Source of the DNA: a virus
Taxonomy: Duplodnaviria > Heunggongvirae > Uroviricota > Caudoviricetes
DNA: 64,000 bases
IMG/VR virus record: IMGVR_UViG_3300029842_000004
Reading direction: 5' to 3' (one strand)
Shown here: positions 11,877 through 51,970 of the stretch, one piece after another
Layout: every line of letters begins with the position of its first letter
How positions within the stretch are numbered: position 1 is the first letter of the stretch
Made by a program: the position numbers and the translations under genes
Notes under the pieces: model-generated
The model's database searches: none
What the model saw: the letters and a program-made list of their open reading frames with translations, nothing else
What the model was told of the DNA's origin: nothing

Positions 11877-12254
11877 AATCAACAGTATATGCTCATCTTG
11901 AGAATGATTATAGATTTTATAGACTTCCTCTATTTAGAGCTACGGCTGTAAAATACGGATGGAATAATCCTATAGGGGAAGATAGTGGGAGAGAGAAAAA
12001 AATATAATTCACAGTATTAAGTAGATATATTATGAGCACAAGTAAAGAATACAAGGCGGTAAGAAACTGCATACTAAATGAACTTCACCTTACCAAATAA
12101 GATATAATCAAAAACATAGAACCATTATTGGAAAAGCTTGTAAAAAGGTGCATGCATAATACATACGGAGGAAACAATCAGATAGAAAATTGGATCAGAT
12201 GTATGGTAAATGACGAACTTAAACAAAAAGAAGGCTATGGTTTTGTAAGGAAAA

Positions 12255-12872
12255 TATGTGGGGGGGGTTATAAAAGATCATGTGTTGAATGAGTTGAACA
12301 TAATTGTAAGACCAAAAAATGAAAGATGCGTATGTGAAAATAGAGTACCATCAAGAAAAGATGGTTTGTATCTAATCTACGGAAACGGACACGCTGAGCC
12401 GTTTGCTGGAGAGAATTTCAAAAAGAATGTGCGTTATATCGGATTAAAGCACAAAGACGTATCGTTTGCTATCTCACTGACGGAGCATGATAGCGTACAA
12501 TTGCTTGACGATGATAGCCGTGAAAAATCCGGAAGTGAGACATATTACGAACGTAAATGTGATGCGCTGTTTGACATTGACGGACGCGGCAATACGGAAC
12601 GCCTTGTGGCCAGAAATCCAAAGTTGAAAAATTTGCTGAAAGATGGCGAGTATATACCATCTCTTGGTCAATTAAATTTAATGGCCCATTATATGGACGA
12701 ACTAAACAAAGCATTCGCTTATGTTTCGGCATCTCCCCTCTCCTCGACGTGGTATAGATCCAGTACCGAGAGCAGCCCGAGCGTCGCGTGGTACGTGGAC
12801 TTCTCCATTGGTAGCGCGTACTACAGTAACAAGTACAACAGTAGCAGGGTTCGGGCGGTAATTGATTTTTAA
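12255..12872 (+). CDS. hypothetical protein (about 205 aa) with a G8 tract in codons 2-4
   Basis: ATG at 12255 in frame with track ORF 12258..12872. ATG GTG GGG GGG GTT. GC-rich codon island near the 3' end. Confidence 0.55.
   Translation, partial: YVGGVIKDHVLNELNIIVRPKNERCVCENRVPSRKDGLYLIYGNGHAEPFAGENFKKNVRYIGLKHKDVSFAISLTEHDSVQLLDDDSREKSGSETYYERKCDALFDIDGRGNTERLVARNPKLKNLLKDGEYIPSLGQLNLMAHYMDELNKAFAYVSASPLSSTWYRSSTESSPSVAWYVDFSIGSAYYSNKYNSSRVRAVIDF
12260..12267 (+). repeat. poly-G (G8) homopolymer at the 5' end of a CDS
   Basis: Read directly. G/C runs this long are rare in this AT-rich window. Confidence 0.9.
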
Positions 12873-12883
12873 AAAGGATTACA

Positions 12884-13690
12884 ATGATAACATCGGTAAA
12901 AATAAAAGACAACACAAAAACTCCTTTTGAATATGCTTCTGACATAGAAGCATTTGAAAATGGCAGAGAATTTATTTTCAAGCCAGGAGTGAACGTAATT
13001 ATAGGTAAAAACGGTAGTGGAAAATCAACCTTGCTTAACATCATATCAATGTATGCGTTATGTGAGAAATCCATGTGCTCTGAAATACCGATCGAGGCAC
13101 TGGATTTTCCACCTATATTTGATGATGATGATGATGATGACAAGGTTCTTGATGGGATTGACATATCATCCGATTATGCAGGGAAAGTATTCCGTTTATT
13201 GCCATCGGCGGAGATGAATCGAGATAGTGTATTAAAAAACATCAGCAACTTAGATTTGTATGTGAATAATATTCGAAGATCTTATGGAGAGAAAGTGGTA
13301 TTATCATTGGAATCACTTTTCAATTTAATGTTCGGTCAAAAGGATTATACATTTCCAATACAAGATCTTGTAGAATACAAGAAAAAATCAAATGCGTTTT
13401 GGATTAAAAGAATTGATAACCTGTTGAAGTATTATGAAAGAAACCGCATAACATTAACAGAAAGCAGTTTTGAATACACGGTTCTCATGGATGAGCCAGA
13501 TAGGAATCTTGACATTGACAACATAATGCAAATTTATAATGTATTGTCATTCCATAAACCACAAACACAAATTATAGCCATAGTACACAATCCGGCATTG
13601 ATTTACAAGTTAAGCAAATTAGATTGTGTGAATTTCATAGAGATGACAGAAGGGTATCTTAATAAAACTTGTACATTTGTGTCCAATTGA
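12884..13690 (+). CDS. minimal ABC-type (AAA_21/SMC-like) ATPase, 268 aa
   Basis: Walker A GKNGSGKST. Signature-like SYGEKVVLSL. Walker B/D-loop VLMDEPDRNLD. H-loop IAIVHNP. Acidic DDDDDDD insert. Confidence 0.75.
   Translation: MITSVKIKDNTKTPFEYASDIEAFENGREFIFKPGVNVIIGKNGSGKSTLLNIISMYALCEKSMCSEIPIEALDFPPIFDDDDDDDKVLDGIDISSDYAGKVFRLLPSAEMNRDSVLKNISNLDLYVNNIRRSYGEKVVLSLESLFNLMFGQKDYTFPIQDLVEYKKKSNAFWIKRIDNLLKYYERNRITLTESSFEYTVLMDEPDRNLDIDNIMQIYNVLSFHKPQTQIIAIVHNPALIYKLSKLDCVNFIEMTEGYLNKTCTFVSN
13121..13141 (+). repeat. (GAT)6GAC trinucleotide microsatellite encoding Asp7
   Basis: gatgatgatgatgatgatgac inside the ATPase CDS. Confidence 0.9.
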
Positions 13691-15253: not shown

Positions 15254-15869
15254 ACATAAACAGGTAATGGAAGTGGAGTGTAACGAATGTACCTCGAAAT
15301 TATTCGTTGATATGATCAAGTCCATTTGTAATATAAGCGAACAAGTTAAGAGTTTTGTCAATCCAGAACAAATAAAAGCAATTGCGGAGTCAAATGAACC
15401 GATTTTGCTTTTATCTAACAACTAAAAAATCATGAGGTATGTATGTGTTTTTATCTGCTTTCTGTTATGGCTTATTTTTACATTGTTATTATCATCAACT
15501 GTCATAGGATTGGTTATAAGCGTGAGTGATGAATGGCAGGAAATGGGTGACAAAATAATAGATAAACTTTAATAAAATATGAATAAGAATATAATCAACA
15601 ACGCTCAACTTTTAGAGATTAAAACTAAGATTAGACAACTTGGGACAATGATGAATGCATATCAATGCAGGTTTGTGGTTTCTTCGGGTCAATTGTTTTT
15701 TTGTGGATGATGAATATGCTGGAACGGTTAAACTGACTAATCTTGATAATGGAGAATCTAACATATCATTCCCTTCATGTGACGATGGATTGATAATCAA
15801 TCCAGCCGATAAGCATATTAAATAATTTCAAAACTAAAAATATTTAAATTAATTAAACAATAATAAGAC

Positions 15870-35346: not shown

Positions 35347-36000
35347 TCATATCGTAAAATTAAGTGTTTTTTCTAATATTAGATATTCAGTATGAATTTT
35401 ACTTCCGCCATCATCTATCAAGTCCAAATTAATATAAGCCGTATATGATACATGATGATCACCAGGAGTGAGACGCTTCATTTCTGATAAGAACATAGAA
35501 TTTAAACCTTGGCCAGACCATGATTCTGGATATGGCAAAGGTGTAAAGTCGGCATCTGTACATTTTATAGCCCAAGTAAGATTAGGATCTGCCCTAACTA
35601 TTCTATCATGAGGTCCATCAATTACAAGATCTGGCATCTCATATTGGTAACTATCATAATTAAGGACAATAGGATCACCAAAGTTTATACAGTATATAGC
35701 AGCAGGTGGAGTAAGGCTTGTTATTAAAAAGGTTCTATAAATCCTATTGGTTGTTCTTAGCGTAAACTCATCAGGTGCTATCACACTTACTCTAAATCCA
35801 TAATAAGGAGAGGTTTCTAAAGCAATAGCAAGAACCACCGAATCCTGTTCAAGCAATTCCTTTATCGTATCAACTTGACTATCGATCTCTTGCCTATCTT
35901 CTATTGGAACACCTCCTCGAATATACACAGTATCCAACCTTTTTTTTAGAAGATTGGTATATAAGCTCACCACCATCAGGGATGGTTCCGATAAGTTCAT
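35347..36000 (-). CDS. hypothetical protein (217 aa)
   Basis: ORF. First gene of the minus-strand block at the convergent junction. Poly-G9 lies 13 nt upstream of its ATG. Confidence 0.6.
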   Translation of the reverse strand: MNLSEPSLMVVSLYTNLLKKRLDTVYIRGGVPIEDRQEIDSQVDTIKELLEQDSVVLAIALETSPYYGFRVSVIAPDEFTLRTTNRIYRTFLITSLTPPAAIYCINFGDPIVLNYDSYQYEMPDLVIDGPHDRIVRADPNLTWAIKCTDADFTPLPYPESWSGQGLNSMFLSEMKRLTPGDHHVSYTAYINLDLIDDGGSKIHTEYLILEKTLNFTI

Positions 36001-36013
36001 TGTTTACATAACA

Positions 36014-36022
36014 CCCCCCCCC
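36014..36022 (-). repeat. poly-G (G9 on the coding strand) in the 5' leader of 35347..36000
   Basis: C9 on plus strand. Minus-strand context gtataGGGGGGGGGtgttatgtaaacaATG. Confidence 0.9.
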
Positions 36023-36089
36023 TATACAGTTACTAACTATTTTATACTCATATAGTTTAGCATTATTTTCAAATCTTCTTCTCATAATT

Positions 36090-36800
36090 TCATAAAATTA
36101 ATTCAGTAAAAGGACGGACATAATGATAACTACCCCTTGAACCTGTATCCAAATGATCTCCTTGGATGTTTATATCATAATACCACGAATAGGAAAATTT
36201 TGTATTTCGAGTGGATGTCCACATTCTATTACTCATTATCGTACCTCCTACCATTAAAAGGCATTCGTTTATTTCATTCGCATACAATGATATCAAAAAA
36301 AACTCTCCGGCGCCACCTACATATCCATTTTGACCATTTTTAAATAAATAGCTATTAGCTTTATTAAAAGCGTAATCTGTATTACTGGTATCATATTCAA
36401 GATACGCATTCTGATTTTCACGCCCCCAATAATCCTTTTTAATAGTTCCCATATGAGAACTATCTTGTGCAAATATATTGTCTATTTGTCCATCCTTACC
36501 CCAACGAAATGTGCCAATATATTCGGTGGCTATAACAAAACACACTTTATCTACAAGAGCTATTCCATTGCATAGATCATTGGAATATCCTTTATTAGAC
36601 CAATTTTCTTTTGTATATAATCCTCCATCTACATGTTGGATGTATATGCCTTTATTGATTATAAGCGAGGGATTTACCCCCCCCCCATCCCTATTCGAAA
36701 TCTTCGTCTCATGATTTTTTGTTTGCAAGATAGCAATAATTGACAACATAAAAGAAACCGGTTCCCTATCATCTCTGACTGAGAACCGGTAAGAAAACAA
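36090..36800 (-). CDS. hypothetical protein with N-terminal hydrophobic anchor (236 aa), containing an in-frame poly-G10
   Basis: N-terminal FMLSIIAILQ. The G10 tract encodes DGGGV about 40 codons into the ORF. Confidence 0.55.
   Translation of the reverse strand: MFSYRFSVRDDREPVSFMLSIIAILQTKNHETKISNRDGGGVNPSLIINKGIYIQHVDGGLYTKENWSNKGYSNDLCNGIALVDKVCFVIATEYIGTFRWGKDGQIDNIFAQDSSHMGTIKKDYWGRENQNAYLEYDTSNTDYAFNKANSYLFKNGQNGYVGGAGEFFLISLYANEINECLLMVGGTIMSNRMWTSTRNTKFSYSWYYDINIQGDHLDTGSRGSYHYVRPFTELIL
36677..36686 (-). repeat. poly-G (G10 on the coding strand) inside the CDS
   Basis: C10 on plus strand, read directly. Confidence 0.9.
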
Positions 36801-51387: not shown

Positions 51388-51970
51388 TTATGAAACTTCT
51401 ATTTCATAATGCGAGGCCTCTGTTTCAACTATCAATCTTCCCTCTCCTTCGAACTCAACACTGTCATTTCCCGGACCAGTAACAAAAGGGAAATCAGATA
51501 CGGATGTTACATAATCTCCAGAACCACCAGAAAAAGACTGACTTTTACTTTGTTTGTAATTGATAGTCAATTGTGTTTTACCTGGCTGAAGAGTTCCAGA
51601 TAAATTTTTAGTATAAGTGGTGGTAGTCGTAATATTCCCATTTTTATAGCAATACATTATAAAAGTAGTAACCGGACTCTTTTTAATATTACTATCTGGA
51701 CCTTCATGATAAGATTCATTTCCTCCAAATATGCTACTAATATGACAATAAGGACCAACTCTTTTATTTGAAGTTTTAGCCTTATTCTCTACTCCCTTCA
51801 AAGATATAGTAACCTTGCTCTTGTATTCAATATCCCTCCAGTTGCAAACTCCTTCACTTACGTTTCCAACAAATCTGTCATCAACATAAACCTCTATATC
51901 CCCCCCCCTGCTGATTGGTCTTCAACTGGTAAGAAACAAGACTTGAGGTATCTTCGTATCTCCTTCTCAT
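51388..51970 (-). pseudogene. gene interrupted by a poly-G9 tract: ATG 51970 ORF stops shortly after the tract; G8 (or G11) would give about 193 aa continuous with the 137-aa ORF 51388..51801
   Basis: Manual translation. ATG AGA AGG...CAG CAG GGG GGG GGA TAT AGA GGT TTA TGT TGA with G9. With G8 the frame runs into MKGVENKAKT... The track ORF begins at TTG. Confidence 0.5.
51900..51908 (-). repeat. poly-G (G9 on the coding strand) at the gene-interrupting position
   Basis: C9 on plus strand, read directly. Confidence 0.9.

What the first reader, a model, noticed from the sequence alone, without database searches (positions are those of the whole stretch)
12255..12270. G8 tract in codons 2-4 of the first gene of a two-gene ABC-ATPase module
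ATG GTG GGG GGG GTT begins the 205-aa gene that sits immediately upstream of the minimal ABC-type ATPase. This window has four G/C homopolymers of 8-10 nt (also 36014-36022, 36677-36686, 51900-51908). Every one lies at a gene 5' end or gene junction. Chance G/C runs of that length are not expected in such AT-rich DNA. Slipped-strand mispairing here would switch the module ON or OFF (phase variation). It is currently in frame.
Basis: partly seen in the sequence, partly recalled or inferred. Interest (0 to 1): 0.75.

Follow-up and report, generated by a model that had tools for sequence, protein, structure and literature searches.

The report
Strain-private poly-G frameshift in crAss-like phage
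The run of eight G's is real, but it sits inside (not at the start of) a dispensable gene of a gut crAss-like phage and currently breaks that gene in this one strain only; three sister poly-G runs in the same genome look like real on/off switches of a small gene family.

Summary
The G8 run (12260-12267) exists. G/C runs of 8-10 nt are far from chance here: the window has four such runs and none of 6-7 nt.

The sequence is AT-ATG-TGGGGGGGG-TTATAA. The ATG is out of frame and stops after 5 codons. The 204-aa ORF starts only at an overlapping GTG.

In crAssE-Sib and about 55 metagenomic relatives the same DNA is codon ~77 of one conserved 278-279-aa gene (helical N-terminus, DUF1566/Lcl_C-like C-terminus). 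They read GGGGAGG or AAGGAAR there, always in frame and never poly-G.

The window strain alone has G8, a +1 frameshift, plus a private TAA at codon 23. The gene is therefore OFF or decaying, not "in frame".

The other three tracts behave differently. Each lies 9-21 codons after an MRRR(F/Y) start in the virion-gene module, with G on the coding strand.
- Site 36014-22 is an uninterrupted G7-G10 tract in about 50 relatives and varies within identical flanks. In the commonest allele G10 is ON and G8/G9 are OFF.
- Site 36677-86 ranges from G4 to G10 among relatives.
- Site 51900-08 is G8 versus G9 between assemblies of this same strain.

Poly-G switching of this kind appears unreported for crAss-like phages in the papers I could search.

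The parts
12260..12267 (+). G8 homopolymer (tract #1, the finding). Relatives have GGGGAGG or AAGGAAR here (7 nt, in frame). The window has 8 nt, a +1 frameshift.
12032..12100 (+). Start (ATG 12032) and first 22 codons of the ancestral 279-codon gene, ended by a strain-private TAA (12098-12100) where all relatives have GAA (Glu23).
12152..12292 (+). 46-aa ORF from Met41 of the ancestral gene. It reads through the G8 (..KICGGG) into the wrong frame and stops at TGA 12290-12292. It is the truncated product in the present state.
   Evidence: (46-aa gene call in L201)
12258..12872 (+). 204-codon remainder of the ancestral gene (helix 4 onward plus the DUF1566/Lcl_C-like C-terminal region). It is open only from GTG 12258. 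An AAGGA lies 6 nt upstream, but that is ordinary coding sequence in relatives.
12884..13690 (+). 268-aa minimal ABC/SMC-type ATPase, 11 nt downstream. It resembles defence-system ATPases (mad3, AriA, PtuA, LmuB, GajA) and contains a polymorphic in-frame (GAT)n repeat at 13121-13138.
36014..36022 (-). Tract #2, G9 on the coding strand, 21 codons after ATG 36085 (MRRRFENN...). It is a conserved hypervariable tract (G7-G10) in ~50 relatives. For this allele type G9 is in frame.
35940..35947 (-). A8 on the coding strand inside gene #2. Relatives have AAAAAAC. This strain-private +1 breaks gene #2 whatever the G-tract length.
35347..36085 (-). Gene #2 (245 aa when intact), split in the window into a 63-aa ORF and a 217-aa ORF.
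36677..36686 (-). Tract #3, G10 on the coding strand, 9 codons after ATG 36712 (MRRRFRIGM). Relatives have G5 (75, in frame), G6 (13), G4 (4), G8 (2), G9 (3). G10 is OFF from the MRRRF start (TAA follows at once) but in frame with an upstream ATG at 36749.
36090..36749 (-). Gene #3 (205 aa from MRRRF in relatives; DUF1566-like C-terminus, a distant paralog of gene #1). It contains a second polymorphic homopolymer, T8 on the coding strand at 36295-36302.
51900..51908 (-). Tract #4, G9 on the coding strand, 21 codons after ATG 51970 (MRRRYED...). Relatives have GGGGA (50) or GGGGG (13), both in frame. Another assembly of this strain has G8 (ON, 193 aa). The window's G9 is OFF.
51388..51970 (-). 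Gene #4 (192-193 aa when intact), split in the window into a 29-aa ORF and a 137-aa ORF.

Best explanation
The window is part of an Epsilon crAss-like phage genome (genus Epsilonunovirus, close to crAssE-Sib) from a human gut metagenome. The G8 at 12260-12267 is a strain-private mutation. An ancestral GGGGAGG (Gly-Glu) became GGGGGGGG through an A>G change plus one extra G.

This puts a +1 frameshift at codon ~77 of a conserved but dispensable 279-aa early-region accessory gene, which has a helical N-terminus and a DUF1566/Lcl_C-like C-terminal domain. The same gene carries a second private lesion, a TAA at codon 23. In this strain the gene is therefore off. Ribosomes starting at Met1 stop at codon 23, and those starting at Met41 stop 8 codons after the tract. 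The C-terminal 204 codons could be made only by unproven initiation at GTG 12258.

The tract is physically slippage-prone, as the sister tracts show. G8>G7 revertants that restore a 239-aa product from Met41 should therefore arise. That would be an incidental property of a recent mutation, not an evolved, conserved switch.

Shown: the sequence, the frames, the ancestral state in ~55 relatives, the second lesion, and the same G8 in the two contigs of this strain that were read.
Inferred: the order of the mutational steps, the dispensability of the gene, and the mutability of this particular tract.
For: Frames and stops were read directly. crAssE-Sib has one 278-aa CDS spanning the whole region, with GC-AAGGAAAT at the tract and GAA at codon 23.

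Every other genome found has a 21-nt, in-frame, non-poly-G interval at the site: 31 IMG/VR loci, 21 metagenome contigs and ATPase- or Dam-linked loci. Only the window strain has 22 nt. The closest alleles differ only by GGGGAGG versus GGGGGGGG.

Of 41 distinct gene sequences, 33 are intact at 278-279 aa. Eight are broken by unrelated lesions, so the gene is often lost. The 90% cluster holds many truncated forms, and all the members read retain KICGEV.

The 204-aa product occurs on only 4 contigs, all apparently this strain. This strain carries at least 8 further frame-splits, each at a homopolymer that is +1 relative to relatives, and all in small accessory genes.
Against: G/C runs of >=8 nt are otherwise rare and non-random in this genome. 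All four are G on the coding strand, which hints at a common cause or at selection.

Three of the four lesion-bearing genes (#1, #3, #4) are in an OFF-by-one state that a single slip would repair. In several other strains lesions cluster in the N-terminal ~80 codons while the C-terminal ORF stays open, so a domain-only product might be functional.

No read-level data were available, so heterogeneity at this tract within the population is untested.
Confidence: 0.7

Rival explanations
1. Tract #1 is a working contingency locus. Slipped-strand mispairing reversibly switches the DUF1566-like gene, and perhaps the ATPase downstream, as a bet-hedging device. It would be a newly born member of the poly-G system seen at the MRRR-leader genes.
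For: Sister tracts vary in length within identical flank haplotypes and toggle ORFs. G8 is one slip away from restoring a 239-aa ORF. All tracts are G on the coding strand. Gene #1 and gene #3 share a DUF1566-like domain.
Against: The run is interrupted in all ~55 relatives. No length variation was seen between the two contigs of this strain that were read; the look-up lists 4 contigs with the same frameshifted product. A second, non-reversible-by-slippage lesion (TAA) sits in the same gene. The tract is internal, not near the start. No evidence links it to ATPase expression.
Confidence: 0.1
2. The G8, and the other +1 homopolymer differences of this strain, are sequencing or assembly artefacts. 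The true sequence would be GGGGAGG or G7 and the gene would be intact apart from the TAA.
For: All of at least 8 frame-splits of this strain relative to crAssE-Sib are +1 in homopolymers (A8, A8, G8, A6, A9, A8, T7, G9), a one-directional signature. The only differences between assemblies of this strain over ~37 kb are two homopolymer lengths. All assemblies may derive from the same reads.
Against: Contig names (k119_, k127_, which I read as MEGAHIT-style names) point to short-read assemblies, where I would expect consensus errors at A6 or G8 to be rare. The change at tract #1 also needs a substitution (A>G). The frameshifts hit only small accessory ORFs, while the 2140-, 2135- and 759-aa genes stay open, as expected after selection and not from random error. 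Similar homopolymer polymorphism is seen across many independent assemblies.
Confidence: 0.12
3. The frameshift is bypassed during expression. Programmed ribosomal frameshifting or transcriptional slippage on the G8 would still yield the full-length protein, or a deliberate mix of two products.
For: The two frames overlap at the tract. Homopolymers can cause RNA-polymerase slippage (general knowledge).
Against: Relatives encode the protein in a single frame with no slippery run, so there is no conserved recoding site. The upstream TAA would still truncate the protein. No tRNA genes lie in the window that could act as +1 suppressors. To my knowledge G runs are poor slippage sites compared with A/T runs.
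Confidence: 0.03
4. The frameshift created a new, shorter gene. Translation starts at GTG 12258, helped by AAGGA 6 nt upstream, and yields a 204-aa protein that is mostly the DUF1566-like domain. This is roughly the gene the first reader saw.
For: The 204-codon ORF is intact and ~99% identical to relatives. An SD-like AAGGA precedes the GTG. In other strains N-terminal lesions also leave the C-terminal ORF open, with gene calls of 239, 238, 222, 220 and 168 aa.
Against: The 'start' and its SD are ordinary coding sequence (V-R-K-I-C) in relatives. From what I know, Bacteroidia and their phages make little use of SD-led initiation. The out-of-frame ATG at 12256 competes for the same site and gives a 5-aa peptide. 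There is no expression evidence.
Confidence: 0.1

Closest known systems
Hypermutable polyG tracts in receptor-binding-protein genes of Campylobacter Fletchervirus phages (Sorensen et al. 2021, Cell Rep 35:109214, as cited in PMC12633550)
   Same: There are several G runs of 7-11 nt per phage genome, on the coding strand and inside virion-associated genes. Length changes shift the frame and create ON/OFF subpopulations. Tracts #2-#4 here match this pattern.
   Different: The phage lineage and host phylum differ (Epsilon crAss-like, predicted Bacteroidia hosts). The genes are small proteins of unknown function with an MRRR(F/Y) start, not shown to be receptor-binding proteins. Nothing is experimentally shown here. 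The reported tract #1 is not conserved and lies in an early-region gene.
Bacterial contingency loci (poly-G/C phase variation in Campylobacter, Neisseria, Haemophilus, Bordetella; e.g. PMC8355987, PMC5084427, PMC1891110 listed)
   Same: The mechanism is slipped-strand mispairing in a coding homopolymer. The run-length distribution is bimodal, with no 6-7 nt runs and a class of 8-10 nt. Tracts lie near the 5' end of paralogous genes, and ON and OFF alleles coexist among near-identical genomes.
   Different: The locus is on a virus. Tract #1 fails the conservation and polymorphism criteria.
Contingency loci in coliphages T2/T4 (bioRxiv 2025, PMC12633550)
   Same: Homopolymer repeats in phage genes give reversible frameshifts and are proposed as bet-hedging. 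They occur in genes of many functions, including non-structural ones.
   Different: As I read that preprint, it scans homopolymer repeats of >=6 bp of any base in well-studied lab coliphages and measures mutation rates. Here the runs are long G runs in uncultured gut phages and the evidence is comparative only.
Ordinary frameshift/nonsense pseudogene of an accessory ('moron'-like) phage gene
   Same: There are two independent inactivating lesions in one strain, and homologs are intact in most relatives. Other strains carry other lesions. This is what tract #1 most resembles.
   Different: The frameshift site is a G8 and therefore unusually revertible. It belongs to a genome-wide set of +1 homopolymer changes in this strain.
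Diversity-generating retroelement of Epsilonunovirus phages acting on the C-type-lectin RBP (PMC11054128)
   Same: It occurs in the same phage group and has the same presumed purpose of diversifying host-interaction proteins.
   Different: The mechanism is entirely different (reverse-transcriptase mutagenic homing) and so is the target gene. The poly-G tracts are not mentioned in that paper.

Membership tests
SSR-mediated phase-variable (contingency) locus - tract #1 (12260-12267) | Uninterrupted homopolymer long enough to slip (>=7-8 nt) within a coding region or promoter | tested here: met
   G8 inside a coding region
SSR-mediated phase-variable (contingency) locus - tract #1 (12260-12267) | A change of tract length switches translation of the gene between an intact and a truncated product | tested here: inconclusive
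   G7 would restore a 239-aa ORF from Met41. The full 279-aa ORF stays blocked by TAA at codon 23.
SSR-mediated phase-variable (contingency) locus - tract #1 (12260-12267) | Tract-length polymorphism among closely related genomes or within a population | tested here: not met
   The two contigs of this strain that were read both have G8, and the look-up lists 4 contigs with the same 204-aa product. No other genome has a tract here. Read-level data were not available.
SSR-mediated phase-variable (contingency) locus - tract #1 (12260-12267) | The tract is maintained (uninterrupted) across strains | tested here: not met
   All ~55 relatives have GGGGAGG, AAGGAAG, AAGGAAA or AAGGAGG
SSR-mediated phase-variable (contingency) locus - tract #2 (36014-36022) | Long uninterrupted homopolymer near the 5' end of the ORF, maintained across strains | tested here: met
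   G7-G10, 21 codons after the ATG, in 54 loci and 37 flank haplotypes. Only about 4 interrupted variants were seen.
SSR-mediated phase-variable (contingency) locus - tract #2 (36014-36022) | Length polymorphism among near-identical genomes that toggles the ORF | tested here: met
   Identical +-150-nt flanks carry G8, G9 and G10 (n=8: 5 G10, 2 G9, 1 G8; n=6: 3 G8, 2 G9, 1 G10). In the main allele G10 gives 245 aa while G9 gives 24 aa and G8 gives 44 aa. Of the top 120 protein clusters, 77 are full-length and 43 truncated.
SSR-mediated phase-variable (contingency) locus - tract #2 (36014-36022) | Reversible high-frequency switching with a phenotype | not testable with these tools
   Needs a cultured phage or deep reads. 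The function of the protein is unknown, with no Pfam or PHROG hit.
Fletchervirus-type polyG receptor-binding-protein switch | The tract-bearing genes encode receptor-binding or tail-fibre proteins | tested here: inconclusive
   Genes #2-#4 lie in the virion module directly after the giant 'structural protein' genes but have no family hits. Gene #3 and gene #1 have a weak DUF1566/Lcl_C-like region. The AF2 model of gene #1 is too poor to use (pLDDT 45.6).
Programmed ribosomal frameshift / transcriptional slippage site | Slippery run and two-frame arrangement conserved in homologs | tested here: not met
   Homologs are single-frame and lack the run
Pfam PF07603 Lcl_C (DUF1566) domain protein (gene #1 product) | Score above the Pfam gathering threshold | tested here: not met
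   24.0 bits against a cut-off of 34.9, E = 5e-5, covering only profile positions 73-116. Many family members carry a precomputed PF07603 hit. I therefore treat it as DUF1566-like, not as a proven member.
ABC/SMC-type ATPase of defence systems (12884-13690) | Walker A/ABC ATPase profile match | tested here: met
   AAA_21 scores 40.2 bits (cut-off 27) and AAA_23 scores 34.3 bits (cut-off 27). PADLOC gives mad3 2e-17 and AriA 3e-12. Membership of any particular defence system was not tested, and no partner genes of those systems were looked for.

The most novel reading that the evidence does not exclude
Epsilon crAss-like phages run a poly-G contingency system on a small family of virion-module genes that share an MRRR(F/Y) start. 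This strain shows the system spreading. Short G4-G5 seeds (sites #3, #4) and an interrupted GGGGAGG (site #1, in an early gene next to a defence-type ATPase) have expanded into slippage-prone G8-G10 tracts. On this reading tract #1 is a newly born, reversible switch and not mere decay. The sub-claim that site #2 alone is a genuine phase-variable locus I rate at about 0.7. The whole statement, including tract #1, I rate much lower.
Probability: 0.15. Interest if true: 0.7.

Novelty: new member of a known kind. Interest (0 to 1): 0.45.

Why it matters
Taken alone, the reported tract matters little.

Checking it exposed something more useful. A widespread group of uncultured human-gut crAss-like phages carries a conserved, length-variable poly-G tract, plus two weaker ones, just after the start codon of a small paralogous gene family in the virion module. 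ON and OFF alleles coexist among otherwise identical genomes.

Homopolymer switching of phage genes has been shown for Campylobacter phages and recently proposed for T-even phages. I found no report of it for Crassvirales, where host capsule phase variation and DGRs are the known diversity mechanisms. If real, it adds a third, cheap bet-hedging mechanism to these abundant gut viruses. It also identifies three candidate host-interaction proteins to study.

There is a practical warning as well. Automated gene calls at such tracts (204, 137, 219 or 63 aa here) are fragments, and frameshifted homopolymers are common in these metagenome-assembled genomes.

Tried and rejected
1. An ORF-fusion scan added or removed one base at every homopolymer >=5 nt and looked for longer ORFs. 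It gave 48 hits in the window but also 43 in the crAssE-Sib control, because abutting genes fuse. I rejected it as non-specific and replaced it with tblastn frame-split detection against crAssE-Sib ORFs and run-length comparison with relatives.

2. AlphaFold2 of the intact gene-#1 protein with 34 homologs gave pLDDT 45.6 and pTM 0.39, probably because the alignment is shallow (all >68% identical). It is too poor for a fold search, so none was run. A sequence search of the PDB found nothing.

3. I considered +1 frameshift-suppressor tRNAs (quadruplet decoding of AAAA/GGGG) as an explanation for the many +1 homopolymer frameshifts. There is no tRNA gene in the window.

4. I asked whether the A6 (36715-36720) and the G10 of gene #3 compensate each other to keep an upstream ATG (36749) in frame. 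In relatives A6 occurs with G5, G6 and G9 without any such pattern, so the idea is not supported.

5. A search for Bacteroides-type promoter motifs (TTTG...TAnnTTTG) around gene #1 and the ATPase found none upstream of either gene, which is uninformative.

6. PHROGs and PADLOC gave no functional name for gene #1 (phrog_4245, unknown function) and nothing for genes #2-#4.

7. Literature searches for crAss-like/Crassvirales together with homopolymer, frameshift or polyG, and the Epsilon crAss-like genome paper, turned up no prior description. One search failed on syntax.

8. A Markov-simulation script for run-length expectation timed out. I replaced it with analytic expectations.
Full report
What is in the sequence.

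Positions 12250-12275 read GAAAAT ATG T GGGGGGGG TTATAAAAG, and the G8 occupies 12260-12267. The ATG at 12256 is followed by TGG GGG GGG TTA TAA, giving MWGGL-stop. The 204-aa ORF 12258-12872 begins at a GTG that overlaps this ATG, and it is listed only because it is the first possible start after a stop. A third frame, opened at ATG 12032, reads MSTSKEYKAVRNCILNELHLTK-TAA-DIIKNIEPLLEKLVKRCMHNTYGG...GFVRKICGGGYKRSCVE-stop straight through the tract.

Is it more than chance?

Yes, as a class. The window is 37.8% GC. G runs number 7534, 1956, 313, 60 and 4 for lengths 1-5, and C runs fall off in the same way. There is no G or C run of 6 or 7 nt. Then come four runs of 8, 9, 10 and 9 nt. Composition or dinucleotide frequencies predict about 0.06-0.25 runs of >=8 per base type, and extrapolating the observed run-length decay suggests far fewer. 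Genes are on the + strand up to ~36 kb and on the - strand beyond, so all four tracts are poly-G on the coding strand.

What the tract sits in.

The only annotated relative in the phage collection is crAssE-Sib (OR575929, 151 kb, human gut, Epsilon crAss-like, genus Epsilonunovirus). There a single 278-aa CDS ('DUF3988 domain-containing protein') covers window 12032-12872. At the tract it reads ..AGC-AAGGAAATC.., and at the window's TAA it has GAA.

I scanned IMG/VR and the metagenome collection with the conserved flanks and a variable gap. I also fetched contigs that encode the identical ATPase or the neighbouring Dam-like protein. Every relative has a 21-nt interval. The alleles are GGGGAGG (the closest, identical on both sides to the window), AAGGAAG, AAGGAAA and AAGGAGG. 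Only the window strain has 22 nt with GGGGGGGG.

The tract is therefore codons 76-78 of a conserved 278-279-codon gene. It arose from GGG-GAG-GTT (Gly-Glu-Val) by an A>G change plus one extra G, and it puts the downstream 204 codons out of frame. The TAA at codon 23 is also private to this strain.

Of 41 distinct sequences of the gene, 33 are intact. Eight are broken, by different nonsense mutations, A-run frameshifts or deletions. The 90%-identity protein cluster contains many N-terminally truncated gene calls (239, 238, 222, 220, 201 and 168 aa). All the members I read that span the site keep KICGEV. The gene is thus a frequently lost accessory gene.

Its product has a predicted helical N-terminal ~88 residues, and the tract falls in the fourth helix. 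This comes from a low-confidence AF2 model (pLDDT 45.6). The C-terminal part gives a sub-threshold Pfam Lcl_C/DUF1566 match (24 bits against 34.9), and many relatives carry precomputed PF07603 hits.

The gene 11 nt downstream (12884-13690) is a minimal ABC/SMC-type ATPase. It most resembles ATPases of defence systems (mad3, AriA, HEC, PtuA, LmuB, GajA). The neighbourhood in relatives holds Gad2-like and Dam-like genes and, in one case, a TnpB insertion. The ATPase also occurs without gene #1. The 'two-gene module' is therefore a loose adjacency in a variable accessory island and not a demonstrated unit.

The same strain elsewhere.

The window matches contigs from human-gut run ERR912129 (PRJEB9576; ENA ERZ918321 k127_5155 and a Logan contig) and ENA ERZ27256539 k119_12166. 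Over ~37 kb compared, these assemblies differ from the window at only two positions, and both are homopolymer lengths: T6 versus T7 at 15696-15702 and G8 versus G9 at tract #4. Tract #1 is G8 in the window and in ERZ27256539 k119_12166, the only other contig of the strain read at this site. The look-up lists 4 contigs in all that carry the same frameshifted 204-aa product.

The sister tracts behave differently.

Reading the minus strand shows that the window contains exactly three ORFs on either strand that begin MRRR. Each is followed within 9-21 codons by one of the other three tracts:
- ATG 36085, MRRRFENNAKLYEYKIVSNCI-G9
- ATG 36712, MRRRFRIGM-G10
- ATG 51970, MRRRYEDTSSLVSYQLKTNQQ-G9

All three lie in the virion module, directly after the 2140-aa and 2135-aa 'structural protein' genes.

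Site #2 (36014-22) is an uninterrupted G7-G10 tract in 54 loci with 37 flank haplotypes. G8, G9 and G10 are about equally common. Genomes with identical +-150-nt flanks carry different lengths, for example 5 G10, 2 G9 and 1 G8 in one haplotype. In the main allele type G10 gives a 245-aa protein, whereas G9 and G8 give 24 and 44 aa. Among the top 120 protein clusters of this family, 77 are full-length and 43 are truncated calls.

Site #3 is G5 (in frame) in 75 loci. It is also G6 (13), G4 (4), G8 (2) and G9 (3), and G10 in the window, again within one flank haplotype.

Site #4 is GGGGA or GGGGG (in frame, 192 aa) in 63 relatives and G6 (OFF) in one Logan contig. In this strain it is G9 (OFF) in the window and G8 (ON, 193-aa gene call) in another assembly with an identical upstream 2135-aa protein.

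Short runs (G4-G5) are stable within haplotypes and long ones are not. This is the length dependence expected of slipped-strand mispairing. Site #2 meets the comparative criteria for a contingency locus. Sites #3 and #4 are weaker, lineage-dependent versions.

State of these genes in the window.
- #2 is in frame at the G tract but broken by a private A8 (35940-47; relatives have AAAAAAC).
- #3 is OFF from the MRRRF start, though an upstream ATG at 36749 happens to be in frame.
- #4 is OFF.

Gene #3 shares a DUF1566-like C-terminal region with gene #1 (BLASTP E = 2e-7). Genes #2-#4 have no Pfam or PHROG assignment.

A strain-wide pattern.

tblastn of crAssE-Sib ORFs against the window finds eight genes that are frame-split in the window. 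Every split lies at a homopolymer that is one base longer than in relatives:
- A8 at 9885-92
- A8 at 10521-28
- G8 at 12260-67
- A6 at 14140-45
- A9 at 23425-33
- A8 at 44981-88
- T7 at 47640-46
- C9 at 51900-08

To these add the A8 in gene #2 and the window-only T7 at ~15700. crAssE-Sib's own splits relative to the window are of other kinds, namely 5-nt and 20-nt indels. Twice the change is 'interrupting base converted, plus one extra' (GGGGAGG>G8 and AAAAAAC>A8).

The splits hit only small accessory ORFs, and the large genes stay open. That argues for real, selection-filtered mutations and against random sequencing error. Homopolymer polymorphism is also common in independent assemblies of relatives, for example the T8 of gene #3, which is T7 in 6, T8 in 70 and T9 in 7. 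Even so, the one-directional bias is unexplained, and only the reads can exclude an artefact.

How it most likely works.

For tract #1, replication slippage after an A>G change produced a +1 frameshift in a dispensable gene that is also knocked out by a nonsense codon. The present products are a 22-aa peptide or a 46-aa peptide. The C-terminal 204 codons are silent unless GTG 12258 is used. G8>G7 slips should occur and would restore a 239-aa product from Met41.

My confidences (the last reading is not exclusive of the first):
- About 0.7 for this reading.
- 0.1 for a functional nascent switch.
- 0.12 for an artefact.
- 0.03 for recoding.
- 0.1 for a neo-start producing a domain-only protein.

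Comparison with what is known.

Poly-G phase variation is classical in bacteria. In phages it has been shown for Campylobacter Fletchervirus receptor-binding proteins, noted in BPP-1 and PB1-like phages, and recently proposed for T2/T4. The paper on Epsilon crAss-like genomes describes a DGR on the receptor-binding protein but no homopolymer features. My searches found no report that links crAss-like phages with poly-G or homopolymer switching. The MRRR-leader poly-G loci are therefore best filed as a new member of a known kind. The reported tract itself is an ordinary private frameshift.

Scores.

Interest is 0.45. The tract as reported is ordinary and its gene model was wrong, but it belongs to a real, apparently undescribed poly-G system in abundant gut phages that can be tested directly with existing reads.

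Noticed in passing
window 36085, 36712, 51970 (minus strand starts); tracts 36014-22, 36677-86, 51900-08: The only three ORFs in the window that start MRRR(F/Y) are each followed within 9-21 codons by a poly-G tract. They form a small family of virion-module genes with a shared 5' end (ATGAGAMGRAGATWY) and swappable bodies. In crAssE-Sib the gene after #3 keeps the first ~22 nt but then continues as an unrelated 149-aa ORF.
   Followed up: yes
window 9885-92, 10521-28, 14140-45, 23425-33, 35940-47, 44981-88, 47640-46 (and 15696-15702): This strain has at least 8 accessory genes split by homopolymers that are exactly one base longer than in relatives (A7>A8, A5>A6, T6>T7, AAAAAAC>A8). There is no comparable -1 frameshift and none in large genes. 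The one-directional signature is unexplained: a polymerase or slippage bias, relaxed selection, or an artefact.
   Followed up: partly
window 36295-36302 (T8 on the coding strand of gene #3): A second polymorphic homopolymer lies inside gene #3. Relatives show T7 (6), T8 (70) and T9 (7), also within identical flank haplotypes. This accounts for many truncated 129-144-aa alleles of the gene.
   Followed up: partly
window 13121-13138 (inside the ATPase gene): An in-frame (GAT)6 repeat followed by GAC encodes a run of seven Asp. Relatives carry 3-7 GAY codons here, so the acidic loop of the ATPase is length-polymorphic.
   Followed up: partly
window 1-36000 (+ strand): A-run lengths on the coding strand are not monotonic. 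There are 34 runs of A6, 2 of A7, 5 of A8, 2 of A9 and 1 of A10. The excess of A8 over A7 partly reflects the +1 expansions listed above.
   Followed up: partly
window ~42521 / locus L242 27086-33488 (crAssE-Sib): The 2140-aa structural protein is one ORF in the window. In crAssE-Sib a 20-nt difference splits it into two overlapping annotated CDS (WOZ57322 and WOZ57323). The GenBank record probably carries a frameshift or a misannotation.
   Followed up: no
loci L196-L205, L232-L241 (relatives of window 9.9-16.7 kb): The early region around gene #1 is a variable accessory island. Neighbours include a Gad2-like protein (PF26128, an anti-Gabija family), one or two Dam-like methyltransferases, alternative genes in front of the ATPase, and in one genome (L197) an IS605 OrfB/TnpB insertion.
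   Followed up: no
window 36715-36720 and 36749: An A5/A6 polymorphic run lies between an upstream ATG (36749) and the MRRRF ATG of gene #3. In most relatives (A5, G5) both ATGs are in the same frame with no stop between them, so the true start of gene #3 may be 12 codons upstream of MRRRF. In the window (A6, G10) only the upstream ATG is in frame with the gene body.
   Followed up: partly
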